The notes: a model not told the origin generated them from the sequence alone. 64,000 bases of DNA from Patescibacteria group bacterium (GCA_018817595.1 JAHITU010000024.1:11155-75154), one strand, 5' to 3'. Shown: positions 11,031 through 48,285, counted from the stretch's first letter. Made by a program: numbers and translations.

Positions 11031-11045
11031 TATTTTTATTTTAAA

Positions 11046-14405: not shown

Positions 14406-17400
14406 TTATAAACCTAGTCTTTCTAACCAACCAAATTTCTTTTCAAAGTTAGAGAAAATAATTTCTACAACATCTTGCTTTTTTTGAGGTGTTAATAAGG
14501 TGTAGTCTTTTGAGATAGATAGATTACCTTGAGAATCCTTGGACTGAACATTAAAACGATAAACAGTAGCTGGTTTTAGATTACCCAATACGGTTGTATG
14601 ACGATAAACAAGATCTTCTCTCAATTCACTACTTACTACAAATTCAGGGTTAATGGATGCTCCTTCTTGATAAAAAACTTGAGAGGTTGCCAACTCATCA
14701 GTTTGCCAAGTAATAATAGTTTGAATTTTTTTACCTTCTGAAGATACAGCTGATTCTGTTCTTAATTGTAATATCTGAGGAGGAATTACATCATCCACAT
14801 TATTAAATTCAGGAATAGTATGAGTAATTAACTCTCCGCTTTGAGTGGTTGATTTTAGACGTACAAAATATGTGGTTCCTCCCTCTAAATCTTCTATGGT
14901 AACCTCATGAGTAATACTCAGTCCTGCAACAGATTTTGTTTTTAATCTATCCTTTTGCAATTCTCCTTGATGATATGGAGTATATTCAATTTCTGTTGTT
15001 GATTCTACTGAAGTTTCCCATACAAATGTAGCTGAATGATCTTCTACATCCTTAACAGACCATTTAGTAATTTCTGGTACTTCAGCATTGGTTTTAAAAA
15101 CAAAATCTTTAGATTGAGCAATAGGTCCTACCTGTGATTTAGATTTTAATTTGTAGTGATATGTTGTACTTGGAGCTAAGTTAGAGAGAACCACAATATG
15201 AGAAGTTGTCAGCTCTTCTGCTTCTCCTCGTGTCTCTGTATATGGTTTACTTTTATTCAAATTATATTCAGCCTCTGTAGCTAACTCAATTAATGAGTTA
15301 GCTGGTTTATCAGTTCCCCAAGAAATGATAGCTGAAGACGAAGTCACCTTAACATTCGGTTCAGAACTTAAAAGTGGAGCTGGGATATATTTTGATAAAT
15401 CTTCGATAGTTTGAGTAGTTAAAACCAAGTTCTCTTCTAATTTTTGTACTGAAACCTGTCCTGCCATTTTTGAGAAAATTGAATTAACTTTTTGAGTCGC
15501 TAACTGCAATAGAGATTCTTGAGCTGTCTTAACTGTGCTACTTGTGGTTATAACAGGAGTTTCTTGAATATCTTCAATTTCTTGAGTGTCTTTCTCCACT
15601 CCTTCAAGAGAAGATAAAGTGGTGAAAGAAGCCTGGGGTGATTCAGCTTTATTACCTGAACTATCAATAGAAATAACTTTATAGAAATATTGATTTGAAG
15701 GGTAAAGTTTTGTTAAAGTTATTTTATGATTTCTACTCGTATTCAATGACATACCATTTAATAGCCCGTATTCTGGACCTGTACCATACTGAACTCCTTC
15801 ATTCGCGTCCTCGTTAGTAGCCCAAGTCACAGTAGCTGTAGTTGCACCAACATCAACTTTAACATCACTAATTACAGGAGCTTTTCTGTCAGTAACAGGA
15901 CAAGAAGCTCCTCCCCCTCCACCACCACTTGAAGCAGCGACACAAAAAGTTCCATTCCAAGAAGTATTAGAACCACAATAACTAGAACCAGCCCCTGCAC
16001 TAGCAATTCCCTCAGCTCTCGCAGCTTCTTCTCGTATGACCACAGCAGCCTCTTCAGACAAGGCTCCTAAAGTAGTAAAGAATGTTTCTGCACTAGTAGT
16101 AGCGTTCGAATTAGCATCAGTGGAAAGCACTCTGAAATAATATTTAATCTCTTCAGTTAAGCCAGATAATTTAACTGAGTGTGAAGTATCCAGAGTTGCC
16201 TTTGAAGAGGAGGCTGTATAGACTCCTGAAGTGGTTCCATAATCAACAACAGAATTTGAAGCTTCATCTGTTATCCAAGTAATGTACGCGAAAGTATCCC
16301 CAATAGTTGAAGCACTTGGATCAGTTGTAATATTAGGAGCAGTTATATCTGACGAATCTGTTGTGGTAAAGGTCCATCCCGCTCCAGCATTATCATCAGT
16401 TCTTGTATTAGAGTTGGAATCGGTACTTTTTAATCTTATGTAATAGGTGGTACCTGCTGTTAAGCCAGTTATATCAAAAGAATGGTTAGAGTTGTAGTTG
16501 TTGTTAGATTCTGTAGTTCCATAGGAATTAGATATTCCGTATTCTAGTGTTGAAGTAGCCACTTCACTGGTCGTCCAAGAAACAGTGGCTGTGGTATCTC
16601 CTATAGCAGTAATATCTGTATCACTATCAAAAGTAATTGTAGGAGCGGTCGAATCTTGAGTAGTAGTCAGACTATAATATGCAACTTCTCCATTAATAAC
16701 ATTTTTATCATTAGCTGTTCCTGAACTTACATAATAGTAATATTTAGTCCCTGCTGTTAAACCACTCACAGTCACTGAGTGTGAAGCCACTGAATCAGCT
16801 GAACCAGTTTGAGTAGCACTGGATAAATCTGAGTTAGTTGAATAATAAACATAAGAACTAGCTACAGTATCTGTAGTCCAAGTAATCACAGCTGATTCAT
16901 TATTTATAGTATCTGTAGTTACAGCAGAGATAGATGGACCTGCTAGAGTATCAAAAGTAAAACCATTATCTCCTGGAACTTTAGTAGCTGTATTATTATT
17001 AATATCCGTTGATTTAACCTGGTAATAATACGTAGTGTCTGGAGTTAAACCAGTCAAGACGATACTATGTTGTCCTAGGCCAGCAGCTGTATTTAACATA
17101 GTAGCTTTTCCAACATAAGGGGCATCTGTGAAGTCAGCTCCTGTAGCTGTAATATATTCTACTCTGGAATCGGCTAGCTCATCTGTATCCCAAGTAATAG
17201 TAGCTGACTGAGTAGTAATATTAGAAGCTGTAGTATTAGTAATAACAGGTTCAACAGCTTCTACTCCTCCCCCTCCTTCTGATCCGTCTTGAGTACCGTT
17301 AGCTGTTCCTGCAATAGCTGAAGAGTAAGCTGAAATATTTCCATCGGCATCAATTGAAAGAACTTTGTATTGATGAGTAGAATCAGCACTAAGACTTCTA

Positions 17401-20282
17401 TCCACATAATAATTCAAAGTTCTATCTGTAATAGTTGATTCTAATGAATAGTTAATTCCATCAGTGGCATGATAAACCTTGTAGGAACCAAAACCAGGAC
17501 CTGGATTATCAACAACTCCCCAAGTTAAAAACAAATCATAAGTCGCAGGAGTCACATTAACATTAGAGATATCTTGAATAACAACATTAGCAGGTGTATT
17601 GGGAGTAGTAGCATTAAGAACAGAAGATTCATTTCCATAAACATCTCTGAATTTAACATAAACAGTATCTGGATCAGTTGTGCTTTGGGTATCACTAGTT
17701 GAATATGATTCCCATGAAGCTCCTGCAAAACCAGAATCTAAAGAAATCATCATTTCTTTGTCTGAATCATCTGTAGCTGCCAAAGTCAAAGTAGCTGGAC
17801 TGGTAGAATTATCTACAATGACAGAAGTTGATGTAGGGGCAGTAGTATCTAAAATACCGGCTATGGTAGTAGAAGCCACGGTATTATTAGCCGCTTCTTT
17901 ATCGTCAAAGGTTGCTCTCATTTGAAAACCTGTTGTATACAAATCAGCCACAGTAGTTGAAGCTATCCATGTTGCTGTATAAGTTAAATATGAATCTTCT
18001 AAGACTTTGTTATCTGTGTATCCATCAGAGTTGTCATCAATCACTTCCCCACTACCTGGGGCTACACCATAAATAATTGATGAAGTAGCAATAGAATTCC
18101 AAGAAGATCCATTGTAATATTCAAAAGTAGGTGTTACATAATTAGGGATAACAGTTCCACTGGTTGTATCGGCATCTTTAATTTCATAAGAAATGTCTAC
18201 CACTCCATCTGTTCCTTGTACTGCTGTGAAAGTTCCGACTAAAGGAGCTCCATTAGCCACATAGATAGGAATAATATTATCAACCGTAGGTGAAGTTAAT
18301 CCAGGTTCAATCACTACTTTATATTGAAACCACTGATCATTAGATCCGTCTTTTAGAGCTGTAGGGATTACTGTAGTGTCACAAGCAACAGAACTTGTTA
18401 ATTTAGTACAACCGCTGGTTAAAAAGTTAGGAGTGGATGATGCTATTTCAGACCAAATAGCTGAATCTAAACCGACAGCAGAAGTGGCTGTTCTTAAATA
18501 CATTTTAACTTGTGAATTAGTTGGTAGAGTTGTATTCTCTGTCCAATTAATTCCTGCCATTACATTAGCAACTGCTTCTGTATTATATTTAGAAGAGATT
18601 AAATTTTCATTATTTTCAAAATAAGTATAATTAACTTTAATCTGATCAATTTCCGGAGTTGCGGCACTATCAGTTGTTGATAAATCCATCGCAAAATCTA
18701 AAGTAGTAGTTGTTCCAGCTGTAAACCCTCCACTAGTTGACCAATCTGCAGAATTCAATGCTTCCAATACTGTTTTAGACATTCCTTGAGATTGTAAATT
18801 AGCTAAAGAGGATAAGGCCCAGGCTGAACCAGTCCAATATTTCCAGGTTGTTCTTCCGTCGAAAGATACTAGATATTTTATATCTGTGTTAGTTGGAGTG
18901 GTTTGGGTTAAATCTACGTCTGTGATTGCAGAATAATTTGATACATCTATTTGAGTGGTATTTGTTGTAATTATGTAATATGGTGTTATTGGATAAGGAG
19001 AACTATAACTACTAATATCCATCATTTCTATTTCTGCTATAGAAATCGTAGTTCCACTTGAAACTGGAGCTGTGACATTTATTCGATAATAATTATATGC
19101 AATAGTATTCCCTATATCATATGTCTTCCATTCATGATATACCCAATCAGTAACATTACTCTGTGTATCAAGAGTAACCCAATTAGATCCATCATTTGAA
19201 CCGAGAAAAGTCCAATTCTTTGGCATTGTTTCATCTACTGAAAGATCTCCGGTCATACGATACCTTTTTATAATTTTAGTCTCTGGGAAAAGATATTGAA
19301 TCCAATGATTTAAACCTTGATTAAATGTTCTCCAATGAGTAGTTAAATTATTATCAAAAGCTTTGGTGGCATCATTACCGCCCGCAACATAATAAATACT
19401 AGCTGTCGCTGTTCCTCCATTACATAAATCATTTGAATAATTAATTACTGTTCCTTGTAATTTCCCAACCCCACCAACAATATCTGTTTTAGATGAATCC
19501 TCTTGTGTGTAATCTCCCTCTGTTGTGAAATCTATAGTGCTTGAAGCTGTTTGTGCTATTACTGTAATATCAGTTCCAGCATTAACACCAGAAGATTTAG
19601 AATAATATTTATCCCAATCTGATTGGTTAGATGTATGATTAGCTGTAGTTACAGTATCGACTCCTCCCACCCATGAAGCTTGAGTAAAATTATAGGTAGC
19701 AGCTTTAACAACAGAAAGTGGATATATTAAAGAAGAAACTAAAACAAAAATTATTCCAATAATTCCAATAGAAGTTTTTATAGTTGTTTTTATTCTGTTC
19801 TGTTTATGAAAATTAATCAATTGTTGTTCAAGAGAAATAGCTTGTTTTTTATCTACTTCTTCCCCTCTTTTGATTTGATTAATAATTTTATCTAAATCTA
19901 AATATTCAGTAGGACAGTGTTGTTTAAACTCATTTAAAATTTCATTCTCAACTAGAACTAAAGAATCTTTAGAAGATCTAAATAACAAAGCAAGAGAATA
20001 AATCAGTCTACGATAAGAATCAATTTCATCTTTGTTTTGAATTCTTTTGTATTCTTTTTTTAATAATTCTCCAACGATAGGAACAGAGCTATCTGTAATC
20101 TGAGAAATTATAATTAAAGATAAAATAAAAGCCAAAAGAATAATAAAAAAGATTATTCCTCCTACTAAATTCCATAGATAAAACAAAGTAAATACAGTTA
20201 GTAAAAACGTAATTACAGACAACAAAAAAGATACGTAAAAAGCCATCTGTTTTCTTAATTTAAACAAATATTTATTCATCAT
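14406..20282 (-). CDS. Giant (1958 aa) membrane-anchored surface protein with an F5/8-type-C (discoidin)-like domain and at least 8 fibronectin-III-like repeats
   Basis: N-terminal hydrophobic helices. A discoidin-like segment (NLTTHWRTFNQGLNHWIQYLF...NWTFLGSNDGSNWVTL). Repeated units of about 90 aa of the form TATITWDTDELADSRVEY...LTGLTPDTTYYYQVKSTD. Thr/Ser/Gly-rich. Confidence 0.7.
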   Translation of the reverse strand: MMNKYLFKLRKQMAFYVSFLLSVITFLLTVFTLFYLWNLVGGIIFFIILLAFILSLIIISQITDSSVPIVGELLKKEYKRIQNKDEIDSYRRLIYSLALLFRSSKDSLVLVENEILNEFKQHCPTEYLDLDKIINQIKRGEEVDKKQAISLEQQLINFHKQNRIKTTIKTSIGIIGIIFVLVSSLIYPLSVVKAATYNFTQASWVGGVDTVTTANHTSNQSDWDKYYSKSSGVNAGTDITVIAQTASSTIDFTTEGDYTQEDSSKTDIVGGVGKLQGTVINYSNDLCNGGTATASIYYVAGGNDATKAFDNNLTTHWRTFNQGLNHWIQYLFPETKIIKRYRMTGDLSVDETMPKNWTFLGSNDGSNWVTLDTQSNVTDWVYHEWKTYDIGNTIAYNYYRINVTAPVSSGTTISIAEIEMMDISSYSSPYPITPYYIITTNTTQIDVSNYSAITDVDLTQTTPTNTDIKYLVSFDGRTTWKYWTGSAWALSSLANLQSQGMSKTVLEALNSADWSTSGGFTAGTTTTLDFAMDLSTTDSAATPEIDQIKVNYTYFENNENLISSKYNTEAVANVMAGINWTENTTLPTNSQVKMYLRTATSAVGLDSAIWSEIASSTPNFLTSGCTKLTSSVACDTTVIPTALKDGSNDQWFQYKVVIEPGLTSPTVDNIIPIYVANGAPLVGTFTAVQGTDGVVDISYEIKDADTTSGTVIPNYVTPTFEYYNGSSWNSIATSSIIYGVAPGSGEVIDDNSDGYTDNKVLEDSYLTYTATWIASTTVADLYTTGFQMRATFDDKEAANNTVASTTIAGILDTTAPTSTSVIVDNSTSPATLTLAATDDSDKEMMISLDSGFAGASWESYSTSDTQSTTDPDTVYVKFRDVYGNESSVLNATTPNTPANVVIQDISNVNVTPATYDLFLTWGVVDNPGPGFGSYKVYHATDGINYSLESTITDRTLNYYVDRSLSADSTHQYKVLSIDADGNISAYSSAIAGTANGTQDGSEGGGGVEAVEPVITNTTASNITTQSATITWDTDELADSRVEYITATGADFTDAPYVGKATMLNTAAGLGQHSIVLTGLTPDTTYYYQVKSTDINNNTATKVPGDNGFTFDTLAGPSISAVTTDTINNESAVITWTTDTVASSYVYYSTNSDLSSATQTGSADSVASHSVTVSGLTAGTKYYYYVSSGTANDKNVINGEVAYYSLTTTQDSTAPTITFDSDTDITAIGDTTATVSWTTSEVATSTLEYGISNSYGTTESNNNYNSNHSFDITGLTAGTTYYIRLKSTDSNSNTRTDDNAGAGWTFTTTDSSDITAPNITTDPSASTIGDTFAYITWITDEASNSVVDYGTTSGVYTASSSKATLDTSHSVKLSGLTEEIKYYFRVLSTDANSNATTSAETFFTTLGALSEEAAVVIREEAARAEGIASAGAGSSYCGSNTSWNGTFCVAASSGGGGGGASCPVTDRKAPVISDVKVDVGATTATVTWATNEDANEGVQYGTGPEYGLLNGMSLNTSRNHKITLTKLYPSNQYFYKVISIDSSGNKAESPQASFTTLSSLEGVEKDTQEIEDIQETPVITTSSTVKTAQESLLQLATQKVNSIFSKMAGQVSVQKLEENLVLTTQTIEDLSKYIPAPLLSSEPNVKVTSSSAIISWGTDKPANSLIELATEAEYNLNKSKPYTETRGEAEELTTSHIVVLSNLAPSTTYHYKLKSKSQVGPIAQSKDFVFKTNAEVPEITKWSVKDVEDHSATFVWETSVESTTEIEYTPYHQGELQKDRLKTKSVAGLSITHEVTIEDLEGGTTYFVRLKSTTQSGELITHTIPEFNNVDDVIPPQILQLRTESAVSSEGKKIQTIITWQTDELATSQVFYQEGASINPEFVVSSELREDLVYRHTTVLGNLKPATVYRFNVQSKDSQGNLSISKDYTLLTPQKKQDVVEIIFSNFEKKFGWLERLGL

Positions 20283-21002: not shown

Positions 21003-21128
21003 TTGCCTGCCCGACAGGCAGATTGTTTCGTCGTGACCTCCCCGCAAAAACGAAAAGCTTATCTTTTCGTAACGAATTTTACTCAATAAAATTCGTCTCT
21101 GCGAGGAACCTGCGACGAAGCAGTCCAG
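21003..21128. repeat. GC-rich composite palindromic repeat between rplX and rplE, co-linear with the 10906-11030 copy
   Basis: cttgcctgcccgacaggcag + attgtttcgtcgtgacctccccgca...tgcgaggaacctgcgacgaagcagtccag. Confidence 0.65.
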
Positions 21129-21159
21129 AATCTTAAATCCTAAATCTTAATTCTTAAAT

Positions 21160-24840: not shown

Positions 24841-27800
24841 TTAAATCTCTTGGAAACTTGGAACCAACATAAATTCCAAAGAAACTGATTCTGAAGGAGC
24901 CCCTACTTCTGTTCCGTTCTGACAAGTTAAAGTAAATTCTGATTTGTGTTCAATAGCAGGAGTAGTAAATGAACCAGAAATTATTCCACTTTCAGATTGG
25001 GCTTGAGTGTAATTGTACGTAGCAATAAATCCATCCGGTCCTTCTAGTGTACAAGAAGTAGCATTGCCAATTCCACTCCAAATGATTTCTCTAGTTTTTC
25101 CTTTGACTACCCAATAAATATTATCATCAGTTCTAAATCCTAAATTAGTTGGAGTTCCTGTAATAGTTTTTGATGCAGGAATAATAGGAGTGGGGCAAGC
25201 AGATACAGGAGGAACCACAGCATTACACAAACCGTCACAACCAATAATTCCAGTACCTGTCATATAACAAGAGTTTGTTCCCGCAGTACAAACTGTACCG
25301 TACCCAACAGGATTAGCAGGAACTGAGGCTGAACAAGTTCCGTCACACTGGATAGTTCCTGAAGCTGTTGTGCCACAAGCATTAGCAGCTGAAGTACAAG
25401 CATCACCTAGATCATCAGGATTATCAGGAGCTGAAACAGAACAATCACCCGTACATTCAATTTGTCCATAATTTACATCCCCACAAGAATTAGCATCTGA
25501 TTCACAAGGGTCTCCTAAACCAGCAGGTACAGTAGGGACAACGGCTGAACAGGTTCCATTACAAGCAATCGTTCCGCTCCCTTTATCTCCGCATAGATTT
25601 GGAGAAGATTGGCAATAACTTCCATAACTGGCTACACAACAAGATACTGTATTACAGCTCTGATATTGAATATTTGAACCTGCACAATACGCTCCCCCTC
25701 CTGATGGGTATGGATTTGAACAAGTTCTTGTTGAATATTGAGTTCCTCCTCCACAAACAACTGTACAAGGAGACCAAGCAGACCAAGCAGACCAACCTCC
25801 GTTTACAGCAGGGCTAACCACTGTAAAATAAACAGGAGCATTAGCATAGGGTGTACCTGAAAAATCAGAGATCCTGAAATTATAGTGAACTCCTTCATAT
25901 TGCCCATACTGCACCCAATGACTATAGGGGGTAAATCCATAATTTGGCAATAAGGAATTACACACTTCAGGGCCTGTCCAATTATTCCTTTCCATGTACC
26001 AACCACTATTAAGTTGCTCAGCTTTATTACTACAATAAAGATCATTATTAAATTCTTGTGGATAACCATAATAAGTTTTAAACCATCGCTCATCGTCCCA
26101 ATGAAACCAAGTGTAATAAGACCCTGGGGAACTAGGAGCACTTGCACTAAAAGTATAATAAGAACTACCCCTTCCTATATAAAAAGAACCTGCAGGATAG
26201 GGTATAATAGCATAATACTGACTACTAGTAACAGAATTCCAACAAACAATAGAACTTTCATACATTGTAGCTGTAATTGTTTCATAAGGGTTATAAGTAC
26301 TTTTGTTTAAGCTAATATTCCAAGTAAATGAATGATCCCAAAACCGATCTGCTCCACCAGCCCTAACAGCATAATTAATTCTATAGGAAGCAGCGTCGGC
26401 TACATTATAAGAACTCCCAAAAAAAGCAAAAGCTTGCAAAAAAACAAAAAAAACAATAACAAAAGTCGGAAATTTAAACCCTTTGTTTTTAAAATAAACT
26501 AAACTCACCAAAATTAAAAACCCTACACCTAATAACAGGTATACTAATAAAGAATTTCCTCTGTCTAGATCAAAATCAAATTTTGTATAGGAAAGAACTT
26601 CTCCTGAGTCATTATCAATTACTTGGATATTTACTTTTGGAAAGAGACAGTCTTTGTTAATTTGAAAATCTATAATCTGATTCAGGGAAAATTGATCAAT
26701 TTCAACCTTTAAAATATCTCCACAACTGTTATTATTTTTATCTACAACTTCGATTTTAGCTATTACATTTTCTACAAAAGAAGGTCCTAGTCTCGAACCA
26801 TAAAAAGAGTCAGCTGAACCACTGTAAAATAAGTTTATCTTGGCTATCTCTCCAGATTCATAAATTGTTTTATCGAGTGAAAGATTAGGAATAGTACTTC
26901 CTTTTCCTCTCAAAACATAATGAGCTGAAACAAAATCAACAGGAATATTTAAACTGTTATTAAAAGTTAATTTAACATCATAGGCTTGAGATTTTTCTGG
27001 TTTAGGTATTTCCAAAGAAAAAGTTTTCTTCTCTAAAGCTTTTATTTCAATGTTATCTTGTGAGAGTTGAGGAGTTTCAACTTTTTCTCCAAAAGTTGAT
27101 CTATAAAAAGTTTCGAAAGCAGGAATCAAAGACAAATCTTTATCAGAGTGGTTTTCTATCTCACAATTTAATTTCAATATTTCTTCTGGATTAACATCCA
27201 CGCCTTGGTCTAAAGTATAATGAGGGTCCAATTCTTCTCCTTCGATATTAAAAAAACAACTTGGTTTTATGATTTCCACAAATGAATTATCTCCTTCAAG
27301 CGTAACTTCACCTAAACTACCTAACCCTAAAATTAAACCTTCTTTATTTTTACTGACTATATATAATTGATATATTCCATTCAAATAATCAGGAGCATCA
27401 TATTTAATTTTTTTAATTATTTCTTCATTTTCTCCTAAATTGATTATTTCAGAATAAATCTTTTCATCAATAATTGATTGTGTTTGTAAACCATCATTCT
27501 CATTTATTAAAATTAAGTGCACCCCATACTGAATATCTGATTGAATCATTTCCCCGTTAGAAAGAACAAAAGATAAATCAAATTTATTATTTATTTGTTT
27601 TATTATTTTAGAATCATATATATTAAGACTTGATATCATTACTATTTCAGGAGTAATATCTTCTCCTAGTTCTTTTGTTGAATCCTCAATATATTTTTTT
27701 ATTAGATCTTGTTCATCTATAGAATCATTCTCTCCAAGCATCATTGAATTCATAAGATTAATTTCTTCTTGAGTTAATTCTTTTGGTGCACCAAAGCCTT

Positions 27801-27879
27801 CTTGTGCTGAAACATTTAGAGTACAATACCCTAAAATTAAAACAGTACAAAACAAAAAATATGTTAATATTTTTTTCAT
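24841..27879 (-). CDS. Secreted/membrane protein (1012 aa) with a thrombospondin type-1 repeat and four tandem Cys-rich modules of about 40 aa
   Basis: Signal peptide MKKILTYFLFCTVLILGYCTLNVSA. Two mid-protein hydrophobic helices. GGWSAWSAWSPCTVVCGGGTQYSTRTCSNP matches the W-x-x-W-x-x-W / CSVTCG TSR consensus. It is followed by repeats of the form CxSxANxCGxxxxGxIxCxGxCSAxxPxxP. Confidence 0.7.
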   Translation of the reverse strand: MKKILTYFLFCTVLILGYCTLNVSAQEGFGAPKELTQEEINLMNSMMLGENDSIDEQDLIKKYIEDSTKELGEDITPEIVMISSLNIYDSKIIKQINNKFDLSFVLSNGEMIQSDIQYGVHLILINENDGLQTQSIIDEKIYSEIINLGENEEIIKKIKYDAPDYLNGIYQLYIVSKNKEGLILGLGSLGEVTLEGDNSFVEIIKPSCFFNIEGEELDPHYTLDQGVDVNPEEILKLNCEIENHSDKDLSLIPAFETFYRSTFGEKVETPQLSQDNIEIKALEKKTFSLEIPKPEKSQAYDVKLTFNNSLNIPVDFVSAHYVLRGKGSTIPNLSLDKTIYESGEIAKINLFYSGSADSFYGSRLGPSFVENVIAKIEVVDKNNNSCGDILKVEIDQFSLNQIIDFQINKDCLFPKVNIQVIDNDSGEVLSYTKFDFDLDRGNSLLVYLLLGVGFLILVSLVYFKNKGFKFPTFVIVFFVFLQAFAFFGSSYNVADAASYRINYAVRAGGADRFWDHSFTWNISLNKSTYNPYETITATMYESSIVCWNSVTSSQYYAIIPYPAGSFYIGRGSSYYTFSASAPSSPGSYYTWFHWDDERWFKTYYGYPQEFNNDLYCSNKAEQLNSGWYMERNNWTGPEVCNSLLPNYGFTPYSHWVQYGQYEGVHYNFRISDFSGTPYANAPVYFTVVSPAVNGGWSAWSAWSPCTVVCGGGTQYSTRTCSNPYPSGGGAYCAGSNIQYQSCNTVSCCVASYGSYCQSSPNLCGDKGSGTIACNGTCSAVVPTVPAGLGDPCESDANSCGDVNYGQIECTGDCSVSAPDNPDDLGDACTSAANACGTTASGTIQCDGTCSASVPANPVGYGTVCTAGTNSCYMTGTGIIGCDGLCNAVVPPVSACPTPIIPASKTITGTPTNLGFRTDDNIYWVVKGKTREIIWSGIGNATSCTLEGPDGFIATYNYTQAQSESGIISGSFTTPAIEHKSEFTLTCQNGTEVGAPSESVSLEFMLVPSFQEI

Positions 27880-28699: not shown

Positions 28700-29454
28700 A
28701 TTTTTTTTCTAAAAAATTAAAACTAATAATGAATTATTATCATATCCCCAAGACTTAATTGAATGGTCAAAGAAAATCAACCACCAAGAAATCTCATTGG
28801 TTTTATGATTTTACGACCTTTATTTTAGTATCTAAAAATACCATAACTATATAATATCATTATATGAAATGAAAAATATATGAAAACTGTGGATAAAATG
28901 ATGTCGGCTCAAAACAAAAGAAATCTTTGCTGAAAAACTTTTTCCTTCGGAACAACTTAAAGACATCCGACCTCATTTTTTATAATATTAAAATTAATAT
29001 CTAAAGATGACAGTTGTTTTAATTAAGAGGTCGGATGTCACCCAAACCACTCCCAGTGGGTCGGGTGAAATTTTTTCATAACTAAAGTAAAGAACAGTAA
29101 TTGTTTTGTTAAAAGTTTTAATGCTTGTATTTTATTTAGGTTTAACTTTTTTAAGGGATGGAAGAAGACGAAAAGCTTTAGCTTTTCGTCCACGAATTTT
29201 GCTTCGCAAAATTCGTCTTTACGAGAAATGAAGCGTAGCGAAATGACGAAGTAATCCAGAAATAAACAAAAAAGATAAACCTCAGTCTTACTTTTTCACT
29301 AAAAGTTTTAATGCAAGGATTTCTTTTATTTTAAACCTTAGTAGGGTGACGGGCGAGGCTTCGCCTCGCCCGTCTATAAATAAAAAAATCAACGGCTATG
29401 CTCGTAGCCATTGATTTTTTGTTTATTTTTTTAACTTTACAGACTTTAAACTTA

Positions 29455-33888: not shown

Positions 33889-34207
33889 ATCTATTTTCTT
33901 ATTTTTCAAAGGACGAAGCCTCGCTTCGTCCTTCTTCTTCACCCTAAAAAGTTAAACCCAAATAAAATACAGACATTAAAATTTTTAATGAAGAGTTACT
34001 GTCTTTTGCTTTAGCAAAAGGAAAATTTCACCCGACCCATACTCCCACAACAAAGAATATTTGTATAATATGGTTTTTAAAATGGTTGGGCTTGGGTTTG
34101 GATCCTGCCTGCCCACGCCTGCCGGCGCGCAGGGGTAGGCAGGTTTAAAAACATATTATACAAATATTCTAACAACTCATTTTATCCACAACTTCTTTTA
34201 AAATTTC

Positions 34208-43162: not shown

Positions 43163-46100
43163 CTATTTTGAAATAGTTTGAGCTGAGCTTCCGCCTGATG
43201 GCAATCCGTCTACTAGGTATCCGTTTGACCAATCTACATGAGCTAGAGCAGAAGTAGTTGTAGCGTGACCTGACCAAACAAAGTCATTGTTTGTATCAGC
43301 ATCTACAGTTGTTTCTGTTCCCATCAAAGTTGCCATTGCTGGGTAAGCTGCATCTCCTGAAATCTTAGTTGTAACATTTCCTGAGAATGTACCTGTTCCA
43401 GCTGTTAATGTAGTGTCTCCTTCTACTTTAAAGTAGTAAGTAGCACCTGCTGGGATATTCAAAACTGAACTAAATTCAACTTCGTTATCACCAGTTACTA
43501 GAGTAGCTGCTGCAGTTGCAAGTAATCCGTTTGTGTATCCAGATACTGGATTTGAGAAACTTGAATCTGTGTAAGCATATACTTCTAGGTTAGTTACAGT
43601 TGTTGTTCCTGATACAGCTGAAGCTGATGAAGTAGCAACATTTACAGTAACTTGGTTAAGTCCGATTCCATCACTTAATCCATCAGCATCTTTAGCTGTA
43701 ATGCTGAATTTGTACAATTCAACATCTGTTGATGAGATTAACACTGTGTTAGAAACATTAATCTTAGCAAATTCTGGATAAGCTCTGAATACTCTCACTC
43801 CATCAACAGCAGTATCTGATGCTGATGTTGTGTTGATAGTTGTTCCTGATTGTGCTCCTACTCCTTGAGTAGATGCAGTATAACCACCGTCAAAGTTTAC
43901 TTTCAATAATGCTCCTTGTGTTCCAACTTGAGATGTTCCGATCTTTGCAAGATCTCCTTTAATTGTCATAACTTTTGATCCATCTTTTGGAATCATAAAG
44001 TCAGTTGTCAAAGTAGATGTTGCGTAATCTGTACTTGTGAATGTAGCAACACCAACTTGTGTTGTTCCATCCCACAAAGTAACTCTAGTTAAGTCTGAAG
44101 GTGAACTTGAAGCAGCAGTCAATTGTAGACCTAATTTCTTCAAGTTAATAGCTTCATTTGTTCCTGTGAATTTCAATTTAGCAAGAACTACATCTGTTGT
44201 TCCAGCAGCAACAATCTTGTATGAAGGACTTGAGTCGTCTTTAACTACTGTGAATGTACCACCTGTTGTAGCTGTCATTATTTGTCCTGATCCTGTAGGA
44301 GTAGCTGTTGTGATAGTAGATCCTGAATCAAGACCTGATCCTGTTTGAGCAGCTGTCATACTCCATAGGTAAGTGTCTCCACTTGCTGAAGCTGAAATGT
44401 TACATTTTAGAGCAATTGTTTTTAGTGTTCCTTTAGGAATTACTAGTCCAGCACTGTCTAATGTAAATGTTTGAGCTGCAGTTTCACCTGAAGCAATGTC
44501 TTTGATGTTTGAACCTGTGTTCAAAGCTGTTGTTCCATCAAATAATTGACATCCTGTTTGATATTCTGAATTTGCTCCTGTAACTGTGTTATTTAATACC
44601 AATGTATTAAATTTAACATCTTCTCCTGATGCTGTTGCATCGAATTGGAAATTAGCCATTACAAATCCTTGTGCACCAGCTACCACGTTTTGTGCTACTG
44701 GGCTTGCGGATGTGCTGATTACAGCTGTTCCAGTTTTCAATGTCATTGTGTTTGAAGTCAATGTTGCATCAGGTGTAGGTGTAATTGAGTTACCTGTTGT
44801 TTGACCTGTTACTGTTGTCCAATCATCAGTAGGATTTGTGTCAATAATAATTGTTTGATCATTAACAAAATTTGTTCCTAATTGACCTTTCAATGTGTAA
44901 GTTCCTTTTCCTAATTGGAAAGTAACTGTATCTGTGAAAGTAATTGTTCCTGTTGTTTGTGCTGATACTGAAGTATAAGCTGCATCAACTGGACCAGCTA
45001 CTACTGAACCATTAGCATCAACCAAAGAAACATTAGTGATGTCGTCTACTTGACCTACAGCTGAACTAGCTGCAGCTGACGAACCAGTAAGTGTTACGTT
45101 GAATACCATTGAAGCCACTGAGATTGCTTCTCCTTTAGCTTCAATATCGAATCCACCTAATACTTGGTTGGCAACATTTTCAGCAATATTTTGTGCTTCT
45201 ACTGTTGTTGATTTTGATCCTTGTAATGAACCATTTGAAACAGTTACTACTGAAGCATCATACCAAGGTGTTCCTGTACTGAATCCTGTTCCTGTTGAAG
45301 CAGGAGTAATTCCATATCCGTAAGTTTCACCTGTTACATAAAGATCTGTATTTTTATACAAATCAAATGCAATTGTTCTACCTGATCCTGAAATGATATC
45401 TCCTTTAATAGTGATTTCTTTTGCAAGACCTTTATCTACAACAAGTCCTGTTCCAAATGTAGATGTATAGTATTTACCATCGGATGATACCATTACATCG
45501 TAAGCAACTCCGTCAACATAAGTCTTAAGGTTTCCTAAGTCTGATGCTGAAACTGAACCTGATTGATTCCATCTAATTGAATGAAGTCTAATCTTTTCAG
45601 CTGATCCAGCTGTTACTTTTATAGATGAGAATGTGTATCCGTCTACTCCAACTTCTTTTGTAGCTGTTGCATTAGGATCGTTCACTCCTCGAGCTGGTGT
45701 AGCTGATCCAATTGATAGGGAATCATTCATTGTGTGAGCTGTTCCCATGATTGGAAGAGCACCATTAACAGCAGCTGAAGTATTTACTCCAATCACTGAA
45801 AGTGATCCAACTTGTCCTCTGTATGAAGCCATTGTTGCTGCTGCAACCATGTTTCCAGCAATAGTTACTGTTTTTGAAGTTCCAGCTTTCACTGTGAAGT
45901 TTTCTCCAACTGTAGCTTGGTGTAGTGAGTTCAAAGTTTTAGCAATTCCGATTTGTGTTCCATCTTCATCCAGTAAGATGATTCCTGCGAACGCTGCATC
46001 TGCTGCTAAACCAGTTCTCTCTATTAATAGAGAGTTAACTACTACATCTCCATCAGCACTAGCTGTAAGAATAACTTTTGTGAAAGGAATTCTTGCTGCA

Positions 46101-46726
46101 GATGATACTGCCAAAGTAGCTGCTGGTTGTGATCCTGCGGAAATAGTTAATCCTGTTCCTGCAGGTGTTACAACTGGTGTAGTTGGGTCAACTGGAGTTG
46201 TAGGTGTAGTTGCAACAGTCATAGCATTTAATTTTGCTCTTGTTGAAGCTCCTACGAATCCTGTACCTGCAGTTAATCCTACTGGTGTCAAAATTTCTGA
46301 AGCGTATTTGTTTTGGAATTTGATTACAGCTGCTTTAGTTAATCCACCAAAGTATTCTGTTTCATTTCCTTTTGATCCTACTCCTGATGCTGCGATCATT
46401 GTGTCTGAACTCATGTTCAAAACTTTTTGTAGGTTCAATACGTCTGCTCCACTATCACCCATTGTTAGGTTTTTTGTGAAGTTATAAGATACTCCTGTTG
46501 TTGTAGTAGTACCTCCCATGTTTGATAATTGTGCTTGTAATGATGAAATCATTGCAAGTAAACTACTGATTTGTGCTGTAAGTTCTTCTACTGTTTGAGC
46601 TTGAGCTGGAGCAACTGCACCACCAAAAACCAAAGTAAGAGCCATAGCAACACCTGCGAATACTGAAACAGCCTTAGCTGCTGCAGAATCTTTAAGTTTA
46701 AATATACTCATAATATGTGTTTTCAA
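43163..46726 (-). CDS. Large secreted surface (S-layer-like) protein, 1187 aa, with an N-terminal peptidoglycan-binding-domain-like module
   Basis: Signal peptide ...AVAPAQA. LTMGDSGADVLNLQKVLN...YFGGLTKAAVIKFQNKYA resembles PG_binding_1. The remainder is Thr/Gly/Ala/Ser/Val-rich beta-strand repeats. The gene is markedly more GC-rich than its flanks. Confidence 0.55.
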   Translation of the reverse strand: MKTHIMSIFKLKDSAAAKAVSVFAGVAMALTLVFGGAVAPAQAQTVEELTAQISSLLAMISSLQAQLSNMGGTTTTTGVSYNFTKNLTMGDSGADVLNLQKVLNMSSDTMIAASGVGSKGNETEYFGGLTKAAVIKFQNKYASEILTPVGLTAGTGFVGASTRAKLNAMTVATTPTTPVDPTTPVVTPAGTGLTISAGSQPAATLAVSSAARIPFTKVILTASADGDVVVNSLLIERTGLAADAAFAGIILLDEDGTQIGIAKTLNSLHQATVGENFTVKAGTSKTVTIAGNMVAAATMASYRGQVGSLSVIGVNTSAAVNGALPIMGTAHTMNDSLSIGSATPARGVNDPNATATKEVGVDGYTFSSIKVTAGSAEKIRLHSIRWNQSGSVSASDLGNLKTYVDGVAYDVMVSSDGKYYTSTFGTGLVVDKGLAKEITIKGDIISGSGRTIAFDLYKNTDLYVTGETYGYGITPASTGTGFSTGTPWYDASVVTVSNGSLQGSKSTTVEAQNIAENVANQVLGGFDIEAKGEAISVASMVFNVTLTGSSAAASSAVGQVDDITNVSLVDANGSVVAGPVDAAYTSVSAQTTGTITFTDTVTFQLGKGTYTLKGQLGTNFVNDQTIIIDTNPTDDWTTVTGQTTGNSITPTPDATLTSNTMTLKTGTAVISTSASPVAQNVVAGAQGFVMANFQFDATASGEDVKFNTLVLNNTVTGANSEYQTGCQLFDGTTALNTGSNIKDIASGETAAQTFTLDSAGLVIPKGTLKTIALKCNISASASGDTYLWSMTAAQTGSGLDSGSTITTATPTGSGQIMTATTGGTFTVVKDDSSPSYKIVAAGTTDVVLAKLKFTGTNEAINLKKLGLQLTAASSSPSDLTRVTLWDGTTQVGVATFTSTDYATSTLTTDFMIPKDGSKVMTIKGDLAKIGTSQVGTQGALLKVNFDGGYTASTQGVGAQSGTTINTTSASDTAVDGVRVFRAYPEFAKINVSNTVLISSTDVELYKFSITAKDADGLSDGIGLNQVTVNVATSSASAVSGTTTVTNLEVYAYTDSSFSNPVSGYTNGLLATAAATLVTGDNEVEFSSVLNIPAGATYYFKVEGDTTLTAGTGTFSGNVTTKISGDAAYPAMATLMGTETTVDADTNNDFVWSGHATTTSALAHVDWSNGYLVDGLPSGGSSAQTISK

Positions 46727-47333
46727 AATTTCTTAAAAAATTATTACTAATAAAAATTTTAATGATTTTAAGAAATTGTAATGTACAAAATTATTTCTAA
46801 TTTTGTACGGCTAATAAACAATTAATAATTTCGTTTGTTAATTTTTATTACACCAATTATATTTACGACCAAATAAAATTGGTGCATTCGTTTGTTTTTG
46901 TTTTTAGGTTCCTCGAACCTTTTGGGATATTCAATTTTCAAAGTACATATTCATTGAACAACTCTTCCGATTTAAAACGGAAAATTTGTTAGTGAAATTA
47001 TATCTTGTCTTGTTTATCTTGCAAAGAAATTTTGTGGATAACTCACACAAAATAAACAGAAATATAACCTTATTATTTTATAATAATTAAGGTTAAAAAG
47101 CAAGAGATTTTCAACCCAACTATGCCGACAGGCAGGTACAAAAATATTACGGTCCTTCATATATACTAACATAAATATAAACTAATTCATATCTAAAAAA
47201 TTAAATTTTAAGACTTATTTTAAAGATAAATGAATAGGTTAAAAATATTATTAATGACTTTATGATTATAGTGACATGGGTTAAATATTAGGTGTTGTGA
47301 ATAGTTTTGTGAAATAATAATTTAATTGAGTTT

Positions 47334-47457
47334 TTCTGGACTGCTTCGCAAGCTCGCAGAGACGGTCACAAAGCGACCTTTACGGTTCGCTTTCAGCGAA
47401 CCGTCCCTGCCTGACGGCAGGCAGGTTTGCGAGGAGTTTGCGACGAAGCAATCCAGA
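47334..47457. repeat. GC-rich composite palindromic repeat with the CCTGCCTGACGGCAGGCAGG module placed centrally
   Basis: ttctggactgcttcgcaagctcgcagagacgg...cctgcctgacggcaggcagg...gcgacgaagcaatccagag. The internal minus-strand and plus-strand ORFs here are spurious. Confidence 0.6.
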
Positions 47458-47526
47458 GTATTTTTTAGAATTCAGGTATCTATTTTAGTTTTAGTCCTCC
47501 GACTTTATTAAATTAAAAGTTTATTG

Positions 47527-48285
47527 TTATTCACTAATCAATGAATATCGGCTCCATCTTCTCTCCCCTTCCTTGTTCAAAAGTTTGTCTTTTAACATTG
47601 ATTGTAATTCTCTTTGGATTGTTTTTTCACTGCAGTCTGAAATTGTCTTTGATATGTCCTTTATAGTTAGTTTTTGTCCTTTAGATAAAATTTCAATGAT
47701 TTTATCACGACGAGATATTTTCTTTTCGTTATTTGTAATCTTATCTGTTTTTGTCTTTTTTGAATCAAAAACATTATGTCCTTTATATTTAAACTGTCCT
47801 TTATCCTCGTTAATGTCTTTTACGGAATTTAAGACATCTTCAATTTCTTTCGGGCGTAAAGATTTGTCTTTAACTTTAAAATAATCCCCTCCTAAATATG
47901 GGGAAAGTTGGTTATTTATTTTAATAGAATTATTTTTTATTAAAGACAAAAGTAAATCAAATTCTCTCTTTAAAACCTCATGATTATCTTCTGAAATTAA
48001 ATTAGTAGCAGAAGCTAATTCTAAAAAGGACAAGATTTCAAAAATCTGAAAAGATATAGTTGAGAAGATTTTAAATTTATCCGAGAAAGAATCATCATTT
48101 AATTTCATAACTTCTGAAAATAGATTTACTGCTTTTTTCCGAACTTCCCATTTTAATGGTTCTTTTTCCTTCAAGTAATCAGTAATTAAATACAAAGCAG
48201 AAACAATCTTCTCTGTTTTTTTAATAAAGAAGGTTAAATATAGGTCATTATTATATCTTTTATTTATAATATCTAATGAATTCAT
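47527..48285 (-). CDS. Hypothetical protein with a C-terminal winged-helix DNA-binding domain
   Basis: C-terminus DKIIEILSKGQKLTIKDISKTISDCSEKTIQRELQSMLKDKLLNKEGERRWSRYSL is typical of wHTH regulator tails. Confidence 0.4.
   Translation of the reverse strand: MNSLDIINKRYNNDLYLTFFIKKTEKIVSALYLITDYLKEKEPLKWEVRKKAVNLFSEVMKLNDDSFSDKFKIFSTISFQIFEILSFLELASATNLISEDNHEVLKREFDLLLSLIKNNSIKINNQLSPYLGGDYFKVKDKSLRPKEIEDVLNSVKDINEDKGQFKYKGHNVFDSKKTKTDKITNNEKKISRRDKIIEILSKGQKLTIKDISKTISDCSEKTIQRELQSMLKDKLLNKEGERRWSRYSLISE

What the first reader, a model, noticed from the sequence alone, without database searches (positions are those of the whole stretch)
43163..46726. Strong compositional outlier: a 3.6-kb gene at roughly 45% GC encoding an S-layer-like protein with a PG-binding module
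The whole ORF is far more GC-rich than its surroundings, driven by Thr/Gly/Ala/Val codons. It encodes a signal peptide and a PG_binding_1-like N-terminal domain, followed by about 1000 aa of low-complexity beta-rich repeats. It is flanked by repeat-rich non-coding DNA (a REP copy, a MITE-like element, a composite GC repeat) and an upstream leader of about 800 bp. It could be the major cell-envelope (S-layer) protein, or a horizontally acquired adhesin.
Basis: partly seen in the sequence, partly recalled or inferred. Interest (0 to 1): 0.5.

Follow-up and report, generated by a model that had tools for sequence, protein, structure and literature searches.

The report
Patescibacterial S-layer protein gene
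This gene most likely encodes the main surface-coat (S-layer) protein of an ultra-small Patescibacteria bacterium; it is a native, very highly expressed core gene of a family already proposed as S-layer proteins, not foreign DNA.

Summary
The ORF is real: minus strand, true start probably ATG 46711, 1182 aa. The "45% GC outlier" claim is overstated. GC is 38.4% (z = 2.2), exactly what its Thr/Ala/Gly/Ser/Val-rich composition predicts, and GC3 (16.5%) is below the local norm. Horizontal transfer is refuted: nine homologous loci share the same gene order, and the family has over 3,300 clusters at 50% identity.

Synonymous codon use is more "ribosomal-protein-like" than the ribosomal genes themselves, and the same signature appears in all nine homologous loci. 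This indicates very high expression.

This architecture matches the "six-domain" Patescibacteria S-layer protein family proposed in a 2024 preprint. I could not confirm the link by accession.

The gene has its own conserved promoter, a ~280-nt structured leader and a strong terminator. The flanking GC-rich repeats are genome-wide elements.

Verdict: new member of a known, computationally proposed kind. The S-layer role is well supported but indirect.

The parts
47033..47041 (-). TTATCCACA element (identical to the DnaA-box consensus), 37 nt upstream of the -10 box
   Evidence: Present exactly once, in the same orientation, in the upstream gap of the window and all 8 homologous loci checked (L001-L008), and 37-39 nt before a TATAAT-like box in at least 7 of them. 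Enriched in the window: 6 found, 0.81 expected. It also precedes other genes, so it is probably a lineage-wide promoter-proximal element.
46997..47024 (-). Sigma-70-type promoter TTGCAA-16 nt-TATAAT
   Evidence: Best promoter match in the region, 10 of 12. Conserved in relatives as TTTGCAAG-N16-GATATAAT. The transcription start near 46990 is inferred, not measured.
46712..46990 (-). 5' leader of about 280 nt (inferred) with conserved sequence blocks and helices
   Evidence: Invariant blocks TTTGGTCGTAAAT, ACGAAATTATTAAT, ATTTCTTAAA and TTTAAGAAAT in relatives whose proteins are 65-80% identical. Three helices are supported: 91.8% of cells paired against 37-51% in slid controls, 15 pairs changed on both sides, 0 of 500 shuffles as high.
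46965..46982 (-). 5'-proximal hairpin of the leader (TTCCG-loop-CGGAA)
   Evidence: The hairpin was flagged on the opposite strand by the scan. The TTTTCCG...CGG motif is conserved just downstream of the -10 box in relatives. A role in mRNA stabilisation is inferred.
46849..46886 (-). Leader helix 1, presenting the invariant TTTGGTCGTAAAT (46861-46873) in its loop
   Evidence: 9 pairs, 6 of them with changes on both sides among 8 sequences.
46783..46808 (-). Leader helix 2 (GTACAAAATTA...TAATTTTGTAC)
   Evidence: 11 pairs, 97.7% paired, 5 pairs with compensatory changes.
46727..46777 (-). Leader helix 3: long-range pairing of AATTTCTTAAAA with TTTTAAGAAATT, ending 16 nt before the start codon
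   Evidence: 12 pairs, 91.7% paired, 4 pairs with compensatory changes, mostly from L009.
43163..46711 (-). Coding sequence, 1182 aa plus stop.
46598..46711 (-). Signal peptide, aa 1-38 (MSIFKLKDSAAAKAVSVFAGVAMALTLVFGGAVAPAQA|QT)
   Evidence: Read directly: basic n-region, hydrophobic core, A-x-A site. Low pLDDT for residues 1-40. No dedicated signal-peptide predictor was available.
46520..46591 (-). Single amphipathic helix, aa 41-64
   Evidence: AF2 secondary structure. An oligomerisation or stalk role is speculative.
46217..46489 (-). PG_binding_1-type peptidoglycan-binding domain, aa 75-165
46169..46216 (-). Pro/Thr-rich disordered linker, aa 166-181
   Evidence: pLDDT below 50 for residues 166-181; sequence TVATTPTTPVDPTTPV.
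43787..46159 (-). Five homologous ~157-aa beta-sandwich domains R1-R5, aa 185-975. The invariant Cys721/Cys770 pair lies in R4.
43166..43786 (-). Sixth beta domain and conserved C-terminal tail, aa 976-1182
   Evidence: All-beta and confident in the model. Homology to R1-R5 is not demonstrable. Conserved C-terminal motif NDDFIWS...DWTNGY..GLP.
43049..43091 (-). Intrinsic-terminator-like hairpin followed by a U-run, 72 nt after the stop codon
   Evidence: -21.7 kcal/mol, z = -6.5, 0 of 200 shuffles fold as well.
43008..43042 (-). REP-like hairpin with a 15-bp stem (CTTGGACAYCSGRTGTCCAAG family)
   Evidence: The other four copies cluster around the IS200/Y1-transposase-like ORF at 40604-41371.
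42841..42860 (.). GC-rich palindrome CCTGCCTACCGGTAGGCAGG downstream of the gene (dispersed family)
   Evidence: One of 9 dispersed sites (11 overlapping pattern matches) in the window, 0 expected. Shares modules with the elements at 10.9 and 21.0 kb.
47406..47466 (.). GC-rich palindrome plus the TGCGAGGAG..TGCGACGAAGCA.TCCAG module, upstream of the promoter (dispersed family)
   Evidence: (family D14).

Best explanation
The gene encodes the S-layer (surface-lattice) protein of a Patescibacteria/Paceibacteria bacterium, of the six-domain, PG_binding_1-anchored type.

Proposed mechanism:
- Shown or strongly indicated: the gene is a self-contained transcription unit with a conserved sigma-70-type promoter, a ~280-nt structured leader and a strong terminator. 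Its codon usage has been selected for very high expression.
- Read from sequence: a Sec signal peptide is cleaved after AQA (residue 38).
- Fold shown, binding inferred: the N-terminal PG_binding_1 domain attaches the protein non-covalently to the cell's own peptidoglycan, and a flexible Pro/Thr linker spaces it from the body.
- Inferred from a published prediction for homologues, not testable here: the six beta-sandwich domains self-assemble into a hexagonal (p6) lattice covering the cell.

The raised GC content is simply a by-product of a Thr/Ala/Gly/Ser/Val-rich, Lys/Glu-poor, acidic surface protein in an AT-rich genome.
For: (1) Composition. GC observed 0.384 against 0.392 expected from amino-acid content; GC3 0.164 against 0.193.

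(2) Expression proxy. Synonymous usage scores +0.086 per codon on a ribosomal-protein versus non-ribosomal-protein log-likelihood ratio, the highest of 44 ORFs. That is 1.22 on a scale where 0 = ordinary genes and 1 = ribosomal-protein genes; three other giant secreted proteins score -0.27 to 0.12. The reference set was verified as ribosomal proteins. The pattern is C-ending NNY codons up and G/C-ending four-fold codons down. In all 9 homologous loci (locus GC 31-51%) C-ending NNY codons are enriched, and in 8 of 9 G/C-ending four-fold codons are reduced.

(3) Core gene. There are 3,311 cluster representatives at E <= 1e-30. Lengths are nearly constant at 1130-1240 aa with about 50% identity over full length. 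Gene order FtsK / ~250-aa unknown / gap / this gene / TPR protein / ... L10-L12 is the same in 9 loci and the window.

(4) Architecture. Signal peptide, PG_binding_1, linker, five homologous beta domains plus a sixth. Mature protein about 116 kDa, pI 4.5, 2 Cys.

(5) Modular anchor. Some members replace the PG-binding domain with another N-terminal repeat module.

(6) Literature. The supplement of 10.1101/2024.05.28.596244 describes a Patescibacteria S-layer protein with a PG_binding_1 anchor and six Ig-like domains, 1131-1274 aa, predicted to form p6 hexagonal pyramids, with homologues numerous across Patescibacterial classes and among the top-5 expressed signal-peptide genes in two Paceibacteria. 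PMC10936435 reports those highly expressed PGBD proteins. Cryo-EM shows an apparent S-layer on Ca. Nealsonbacteria.

(7) A dedicated conserved promoter, a structured leader and a terminator.
Against: There is no direct evidence of lattice formation or abundance for this protein. Codon bias is only a proxy for expression. I could not confirm by accession or sequence that this protein is homologous to the preprint's entries: the AFDB library was unavailable, cluster look-ups gave no matching accession, and the relevant supplementary tables were truncated. The link therefore rests on matching architecture, length, taxon and expression behaviour. The preprint's own assignment is computational. No solved S-layer protein appears among the fold matches. 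The window's own PG_binding_1 copy is below Pfam's threshold. Homology of the sixth domain to the other five is not shown. About 50% identity across a whole class is rather conserved for an S-layer protein.
Confidence: 0.7

Rival explanations
1. It is an abundant, wall-anchored host-attachment protein (adhesin or 'extracellular enzyme') used by the episymbiont to bind its host cell, rather than a lattice-forming coat. This is how Kuroda et al. 2024 interpreted the homologous PGBD proteins.
For: PGBD plus Ig-like domains are common in adhesins. Fold matches include PrgB, AgI/II, the CLIPPER domain and Bap. PMC10936435 reports such proteins as highly expressed in host-attached Paceibacteria and suggests attachment roles. 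High expression is compatible with this reading.
Against: No catalytic domain is detected by Pfam, NCBIfam, PDB profile search or fold search. The hosts in the Kuroda study are methanogenic archaea, which from general knowledge lack murein, so a PG_binding_1 domain is more plausibly a self-anchor. Adhesins usually vary in repeat number and diversify with the host, whereas here length, domain count and chromosomal position are constant across thousands of clusters. Codon bias exceeding that of ribosomal proteins points to bulk structural abundance. There is no LPXTG motif or C-terminal anchor (sequence).
Confidence: 0.17
2. It is an abundant peptidoglycan-associated structural protein that forms a non-crystalline outer wall zone, spacer or sheath rather than a true 2-D crystalline S-layer.
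For: All the evidence for abundance, secretion and wall anchoring fits equally well. Cryo-EM of Ca. [quoted passage not shown] Lattice formation was not tested here.
Against: [quoted passage not shown] This is consistent with the 13-nm p6 hexagonal-pyramid lattice the preprint cites from cryo-EM of unidentified Patescibacteria.
Confidence: 0.1
3. It is a horizontally acquired adhesin or genomic island, flagged by deviant GC and flanking mobile repeats.
For: It has the highest GC of the 44 ORFs. REP-like and mosaic repeats lie on both flanks, and an IS200/Y1-like transposase gene lies 1.8 kb downstream.
Against: GC is fully explained by amino-acid composition, and GC3 is lower than expected, like native highly expressed genes. 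Codon choice matches the host's own ribosomal-protein genes. Synteny is conserved in 9 loci down to 45-50% protein identity. The repeats are dispersed throughout the window. All homologues are Patescibacteria.
Confidence: 0.02

Closest known systems
Six-domain Patescibacteria S-layer protein family proposed in bioRxiv 10.1101/2024.05.28.596244 (A0A1G2EN61 Nealsonbacteria 1131 aa, A0A0G1WWP5 Kaiserbacteria 1173 aa, GMX59286.1 Parcubacteria 1185 aa, and others)
   Same: Same phylum. Same size class (1182 aa against 1131-1274). Signal peptide. N-terminal PG_binding_1 anchor. Six Ig-like/beta-sandwich domains. Very large family across Patescibacteria. Signs of very high expression: codon bias here, metatranscriptome there.
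   Different: Homology to the listed accessions was not verified here. The family's S-layer role is itself a computational prediction. In this protein, five domains are demonstrably homologous to each other and the sixth is not.
Haloferax volcanii S-layer glycoprotein csg (six Ig-like domains, p6 lattice)
   Same: According to the preprint, the overall design is the same: a chain of six Ig-like domains building hexagonal units. The protein is acidic, Thr/Ser-rich and Cys-poor.
   Different: No sequence or specific fold match was found. According to the preprint's supplement, Halobacteriota S-layer proteins are typically anchored by PGF-CTERM lipidation at the C-terminus, whereas this protein has an N-terminal peptidoglycan-binding domain. 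[quoted passage not shown]
SLH-domain or CWB2-anchored S-layer proteins of Bacillota (e.g. Sap/EA1, SbsB, C. difficile SlpA)
   Same: The same functional logic: a secreted protein with a cell-wall-binding module plus a self-assembling body, expressed at very high level. The anchor module is exchangeable within the family.
   Different: No SLH or CW_binding_2 domain was detected. The anchor here is PG_binding_1, and the lattice domains are unrelated.
PG_binding_1 (PF01471) domains of wall hydrolases (SleB N-domain 6tci, Zn DD-peptidase 1lbu, phage endolysins 5nm7 and 3bkh)
   Different: No hydrolase domain is attached. The window's copy carries a ~20-residue insertion and scores below Pfam's cut-off.
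Fibrillar Ig-like adhesins (PrgB, antigen I/II, Bap, CLIPPER-containing adhesins)

Membership tests
PG_binding_1 (Pfam PF01471) | Sequence match to the family model above the curated threshold | tested here: inconclusive
   The window copy scores 18.3 bits against a 23-bit cut-off, but 30 of 40 full-length homologues match at E <= 0.01, best 3e-8. The family profile hits the 1lbu PG-binding domain at E = 0.005.
PG_binding_1 (Pfam PF01471) | Three-helix-bundle fold of solved PG_binding_1 domains | tested here: met
PG_binding_1 (Pfam PF01471) | Actual binding to peptidoglycan | not testable with these tools
   Needs a pull-down of the recombinant domain with purified sacculi.
S-layer proteins (functional class) | Export signal | tested here: met
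   The N-terminus has a basic n-region, a hydrophobic core and an AQA|Q site, read directly. It is disordered in the model. No dedicated predictor was available.
S-layer proteins (functional class) | A means of anchoring to the cell envelope | tested here: met
   PG_binding_1 domain followed by a Pro/Thr linker.
S-layer proteins (functional class) | Among the most abundant proteins of the cell | tested here: inconclusive
   Supported only by proxy. Codon usage is the most ribosomal-protein-like of 44 ORFs (1.22 on the 0-1 scale), and the same signature appears in 9 homologous loci. Published metatranscriptomes show PGBD proteins among the top-5 expressed secreted genes in related species, and the preprint identifies those in two of the species as homologues of its six-domain S-layer protein. 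There are no expression data for this organism.
S-layer proteins (functional class) | Self-assembly into a two-dimensional crystalline lattice | not testable with these tools
   Only monomer prediction was available. The preprint reports p6 assemblies for proteins of the same architecture.
S-layer proteins (functional class) | A regular surface layer observed on cells of the lineage | not testable with these tools
   Literature only: an apparent S-layer on Ca. Nealsonbacteria, and a p6, 13-nm lattice on unidentified Patescibacteria as cited.
Six-domain Patescibacteria S-layer protein family (10.1101/2024.05.28.596244) | PG_binding_1 anchor plus six Ig-like domains, about 1130-1275 aa, Patescibacteria | tested here: met
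   1182 aa. PG-binding domain at aa 75-165. Five homologous domains plus one further beta domain. Taxon. Description.
Six-domain Patescibacteria S-layer protein family (10.1101/2024.05.28.596244) | Demonstrable sequence homology to the listed accessions (A0A1G2EN61, GMX59286.1 and others) | not testable with these tools
   The sequences are not retrievable here. The AFDB library is absent, and cluster look-ups gave no matching accession.
SLH-anchored S-layer proteins | SLH domain(s) | tested here: not met
   No SLH or other wall-binding Pfam family besides PG_binding_1.
Horizontally acquired island | Codon usage or GC3 deviating from the host genome once amino-acid composition is accounted for | tested here: not met
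   GC 0.384 observed against 0.392 expected. GC3 deviation of -0.029, within the range of the native ribosomal-protein genes.
Horizontally acquired island | Patchy presence or variable location among relatives | tested here: not met
   Same neighbours in 9 loci spanning 45-80% protein identity.
Sortase-anchored fibrillar adhesins (MSCRAMM-like) | C-terminal LPXTG motif, hydrophobic segment and charged tail | tested here: not met
   The C-terminus is ...GYLVDGLPSGGSSAQTISK, with no LPXTG motif or membrane segment.

The most novel reading that the evidence does not exclude
The conserved upstream apparatus of this gene may be an undescribed regulatory module for S-layer synthesis in Paceibacteria. 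Its parts are: a DnaA-box-identical TTATCCACA element at about -45; a ~280-nt leader with three covarying helices and an invariant 13-nt loop (TTTGGTCGTAAAT); a long-range helix ending 16 nt before the start codon in a genome that lacks Shine-Dalgarno sites; and an always-adjacent ~250-aa protein with weak four-helix-bundle and winged-helix signals. Such a module could, for example, stabilise the mRNA and gate translation through a leader RNA, or couple coat production to the cell cycle.
Probability: 0.2. Interest if true: 0.5.

Novelty: new member of a known kind. Interest (0 to 1): 0.33.

Why it matters
Patescibacteria (CPR) make up a large share of bacterial diversity, and genome papers have described their cell envelope as unclear (PMC5220378). 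Public annotation calls this gene only a "peptidoglycan-binding protein".

The analysis adds independent genomic support to the proposal that this PG-anchored six-domain family is the S-layer of these ultra-small cells. That support comes from translational-selection signatures repeated in ten loci, strict synteny, and a dedicated promoter, leader and terminator. It also argues against reading these proteins as host-attachment enzymes. It gives precise domain boundaries and a candidate strong promoter and leader that could be used for expression work.

It also illustrates a general caution: a GC "outlier" in an AT-rich genome can be entirely an amino-acid effect. However, the family was already proposed as an S-layer protein in a preprint, so the finding confirms and extends rather than discovers.

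Tried and rejected
- Self-BLASTP for internal repeats found none. Only profile-profile comparison revealed the domain repeats.
- Homology of the sixth domain to R1-R5 was not demonstrable even with the C-terminal tail included. The only hit was a trivial overlap of shared residues.
- The AFDB fold search, which would have returned UniProt accessions to link to the preprint, was unavailable.
- Linking by length-matched cluster members gave no matching accessions. The 1185-aa NCBI member P0269 comes from an unrelated metagenome assembly.
- The Kuroda supplementary tables for PMX.108 and PMX.50 were truncated. Only PMX_810_sub_00350 was found: 692 aa, log2 RPKM 16.7.
- NCBIfam has no model for the protein. 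Rfam and tRNA scans found nothing in the whole window.
- Genome and metagenome scans for the leader motif returned few loci, mostly ones already held. L015 was a chance match. The covariation test therefore rests on only 8 sequences from a narrow clade.
- A leader peptide in the 5' leader was considered and rejected, because the ATG is not conserved (read from the alignment).
- The absence of a Shine-Dalgarno sequence was considered as a special feature and rejected: only 2 of 38 genes in the window have one.
- TTATCCACA was considered as a gene-specific operator and rejected: it also precedes other genes.


Full report
THE OBSERVATION

An ORF lies at 43163..46726 on the minus strand. Its real start is almost certainly the ATG at 46711, giving 1182 aa. 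The sequence ATTATGAGTATATTT is invariant in relatives, and the identical 1182-aa protein is deposited as MBU1046781.1, [quoted passage not shown].

The compositional claim is overstated. The ORF is 38.4% GC against 31.9% for the window. This is z = 2.2 relative to the other 43 ORFs and only just above the next ORF (38.0%). No 500-bp window inside it exceeds 41.8%, whereas a Cys/Gly-rich part of another gene at 25.3 kb reaches 44.2%.

The excess sits in codon positions 1 and 2 (0.476 and 0.512), while GC3 is 0.165. The protein is 15.1% Thr, 11.6% Ala, 10.4% Gly, 9.9% Ser and 8.8% Val.

Taking the protein's amino-acid composition and the synonymous codon frequencies of the other 43 ORFs, the expected GC is 0.392. 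The observed value is 0.384. Expected GC3 is 0.193 and observed is 0.164, a deviation (-0.029) within the range shown by the window's ribosomal-protein genes (-0.014 to -0.071). The compositional anomaly is therefore wholly an amino-acid effect, and nothing suggests foreign DNA.

CODON USAGE POINTS TO VERY HIGH EXPRESSION

I computed a log-likelihood ratio between the synonymous usage of 12 ribosomal-protein genes and that of all other ORFs. Ten of the 12 were verified by Pfam; the other two (L10, L7/L12) were assigned from their N-terminal sequence and from synteny with homologous loci where these genes carry Pfam annotations. This gene has the highest value in the window, +0.086 per codon.

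Simulations that hold its amino-acid composition fixed place it at 1.22 on a scale where 0 = ordinary genes and 1 = ribosomal-protein genes. Three other giant secreted proteins of similar composition sit at -0.27 to 0.12.

The pattern has two opposite parts. G/C-ending codons are almost absent from four-fold families (ACC, ACG, GGG and GTC about 0). C-ending codons are enriched in the NNY families: AAC 0.53 against 0.15-0.19, TTC 0.58 against 0.28/0.19, TAC 0.60 against 0.39/0.16. Mutational bias or foreign origin would not push the two classes in opposite directions. Translational selection does, from established knowledge of codon-anticodon preferences.

The signature recurs in the homologous gene of nine other loci with locus GC from 31% to 51%. 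C/(C+T) in NNY codons is 0.24-0.67 against 0.16-0.40 for neighbouring genes in all nine. G/C-ending use in four-fold families is lower than in neighbours in eight of nine.

A CORE, VERTICALLY INHERITED GENE

More than 1,500 hits were scored in the first search. The best 120 are nearly all 1130-1240 aa, 47-79% identical over 93-100% of the query, and every one that carries a source name comes from Patescibacteria, Paceibacteria or Parcubacteria, or is labelled only 'bacterium'. An exhaustive profile search finds 3,311 representatives of 50%-identity clusters at E <= 1e-30.

In nine loci from relatives with 45-80% identity, the neighbours are the same as in the window. The order is FtsK (divergent), a ~205-290-aa protein without Pfam match, a 470-1300-bp gap, this gene, a TPR protein, often a Y1/IS200-like transposase gene, a ~50-aa ORF and a ~180-aa ORF, an LTD/beta-helix giant protein, and L10 and L7/L12. 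Horizontal acquisition is rejected.

ARCHITECTURE

The AlphaFold model built on 54 sequences is confident: mean pLDDT 84.8, with a low pTM of 0.46 as expected for beads on a string. It shows:
- a disordered signal peptide (aa 1-38, ...APAQA|QT)
- one helix (aa 41-64)
- a helical module (aa 75-165)
- a disordered Pro/Thr linker (aa 166-181)
- an uninterrupted all-beta region to the C-terminus

The body is not low-complexity sequence. BLASTP against itself finds nothing. Profile-profile comparison of ~157-aa slices shows five anciently duplicated domains: R4-R5 98.3% (E = 2e-14), R2-R4 97.5%, R3-R4 97.2%, R1-R5 91.6%. A sixth beta domain follows whose homology to the others cannot be shown.

Fold matches for the body are generic: cohesin, Calx-beta, Ig-like adhesin domains and MG domains. 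The mature protein is about 116 kDa, pI 4.5, with two cysteines that are invariant in the family, C721 and C770.

Some family members keep the body but replace the PG-binding domain with tandem copies of another motif, AVYYL..DGKRYVFPN. No Pfam family matched those members at E <= 0.01. The design is therefore modular: an anchor plus a body.

COMPARISON WITH WHAT IS KNOWN

Cryo-EM shows an apparent S-layer on Ca. Nealsonbacteria. A 2017 Parcubacterium genome paper stated that the structure of the CPR envelope remained unclear.

Kuroda et al. (PMC10936435) found PGBD-containing secreted proteins "of relatively similar structures" among the five most expressed signal-peptide genes in three Paceibacteria, and read them as host-attachment enzymes.

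The supplement of the preprint 10.1101/2024.05.28.596244 describes a putative S-layer protein found by scanning a Nealsonbacteria genome. [quoted passage not shown] It is predicted to build p6 hexagonal spiral pyramids, which the preprint sets beside a 13-nm p6 lattice seen by cryo-EM. Its homologues are numerous across Patescibacterial classes, and two of them are among Kuroda's top-expressed genes. The listed entries are 1131-1274 aa.

The window's protein matches this description in taxon, size, anchor, domain count and expression behaviour, so I file it as a member of that family. I could not verify the homology at sequence level. I put that membership at about 0.85 and the S-layer function at about 0.7.

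THE TRANSCRIPTION UNIT

The 815-bp upstream gap is only partly a leader. A sigma-70-type promoter, TTGCAA-16-TATAAT at 47024..46997, is the best match in the region.

It is preceded by TTATCCACA at 47041..47033. That 9-mer occurs exactly once, in the same orientation, in the upstream gap of the window and all eight relatives checked. It lies 37-39 nt before a TATAAT-like box in at least seven of them. It is enriched in the window, 6 found against 0.81 expected, and also precedes other genes. It therefore looks like a lineage-wide promoter-proximal element rather than a gene-specific operator.

The predicted leader is about 280 nt here and about 270-560 nt in relatives. In the close clade it contains invariant blocks and three helices. 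On 8 sequences, 91.8% of cells are paired against 37-51% for slid controls, 15 pairs change on both sides, and no shuffle out of 500 reaches the observed values. The sample is small and the structure was derived from the same sequences, so this is moderate evidence.

Only five species-level genomes carry this exact leader motif.

A strong hairpin (-21.7 kcal/mol, z = -6.5) with a U-run follows the stop codon by 72 nt. The gene is thus a self-contained, probably monocistronic unit. This fits a bulk structural protein. From general knowledge, S-layer genes of other bacteria also have strong promoters and long stabilising leaders.

THE FLANKING REPEATS

These are real but not specific to this gene. 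CCTGCC..GGCAGG palindromes occur at 9 dispersed intergenic sites (11 overlapping pattern matches, 0 expected). They share modules with ~148-nt mosaic elements at 10.9 and 21.0 kb. A second hairpin family, CTTGGACAYCSGRTGTCCAAG, has five copies clustered around the Y1/IS200-like transposase ORF at 40604-41371.

VERDICT

The ORF and its biased amino-acid content are real. The "45% GC outlier" and "low-complexity repeats" claims are not. The horizontally-acquired-adhesin alternative is refuted.

The S-layer alternative is the best explanation. It is supported by several independent indirect lines and by agreement with an already proposed family. The finding is a new member of a known, computationally proposed kind. 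The conserved promoter element and structured leader are the only parts that may be new.

Noticed in passing
window 47033-47041, 40555-40563, 28888-28896, 41333-41341, 34182-34190, 26057-26065; L001-L008: The DnaA-box-identical 9-mer TTATCCACA is enriched (6 found, 0.81 expected). At several genes in the window and in related genomes it sits 37-39 nt upstream of a TATAAT box. This suggests a lineage-wide promoter-proximal element or a global regulator site.
   Followed up: partly
window 40566-40593, 41084-41111, 41299-41326, 41346-41373, 43009-43036; ORF 40604-41371: Five copies of a REP-like hairpin (CTTGGACAYCSGRTGTCCAAG) cluster around an IS200/Y1-transposase-like ORF (Pfam Y1_Tnp, E = 1e-7), resembling a REP/RAYT pair. 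One copy lies in frame inside the ORF. A Y1_Tnp gene occupies the same position after the TPR gene in L004, L006 and L008.
   Followed up: partly
window 10913-11060 and 21011-21158; modules also at 29192-29225, 42841-42900, 47406-47466: A ~148-nt GC-rich mosaic intergenic element (81% identical copies) is built from shared modules: the CCTGCC..GGCAGG palindrome, ACGAATTTTGC..GCAAAATTCGT and TGCGAGGA..TGCGACGAAGCAGTCCAG. These recombine at different intergenic sites. It is MITE-like, and its function is unknown.
   Followed up: partly
window, all gene starts: Only 2 of 38 genes have any Shine-Dalgarno-like motif upstream. Start codons are preceded by A/T-rich sequence, so this organism appears to initiate translation without Shine-Dalgarno pairing.
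   Followed up: partly
window 47527-48285 (-); same position in L001-L008 and L018: A ~205-290-aa protein without Pfam match always lies immediately upstream of the S-layer candidate, in the same orientation. NCBIfam gives weak hints of an Avd-like four-helix bundle (aa 21-108) and a DeoR/GlpR-type HTH (aa 191-237). It is a possible dedicated regulator.
   Followed up: partly
window 14406-20282, 24841-27879, 35152-39150 (all -): Three further giant secreted proteins: 1958 aa with eight Pur_ac_phosph_N/fn3-type repeats plus an F5/8 type C domain; 1012 aa with a thrombospondin type-1 domain and Cys-rich repeats (the most GC-rich spot of the window, 44%); and 1332 aa with a lamin-tail domain, fn3 and a beta-helix. 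All have ordinary, non-expression-biased codon usage.
   Followed up: partly
L018 45-3548: The FtsK gene next to the homologous S-layer candidate carries an intein with a LAGLIDADG endonuclease (Pfam Intein_splicing, LAGLIDADG_3) inside the FtsK_SpoIIIE domain.
   Followed up: no
proteins P0211, P0250, P0259, P0183: Family variants keep the beta body but replace the PG-binding domain with 2-3 tandem copies of an 'AVYYL..DGKRYVFPN..TY.SW' module; no Pfam family matched at E <= 0.01. P0183 has a different N-terminus again (a 'SILxLLSxFGA' motif, seen twice), appears to duplicate the first two body domains, and has a different C-terminus.
   Followed up: no
window 1-64000: There is no tRNA gene and no Rfam family at gathering threshold in 64 kb, even though the window includes ribosomal-protein genes.
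   Followed up: no
window 43163-46711, aa 721 and 770: The only two cysteines of the protein are invariant across the family and lie in domain R4. This suggests a conserved disulfide in an extracellular domain.
   Followed up: no
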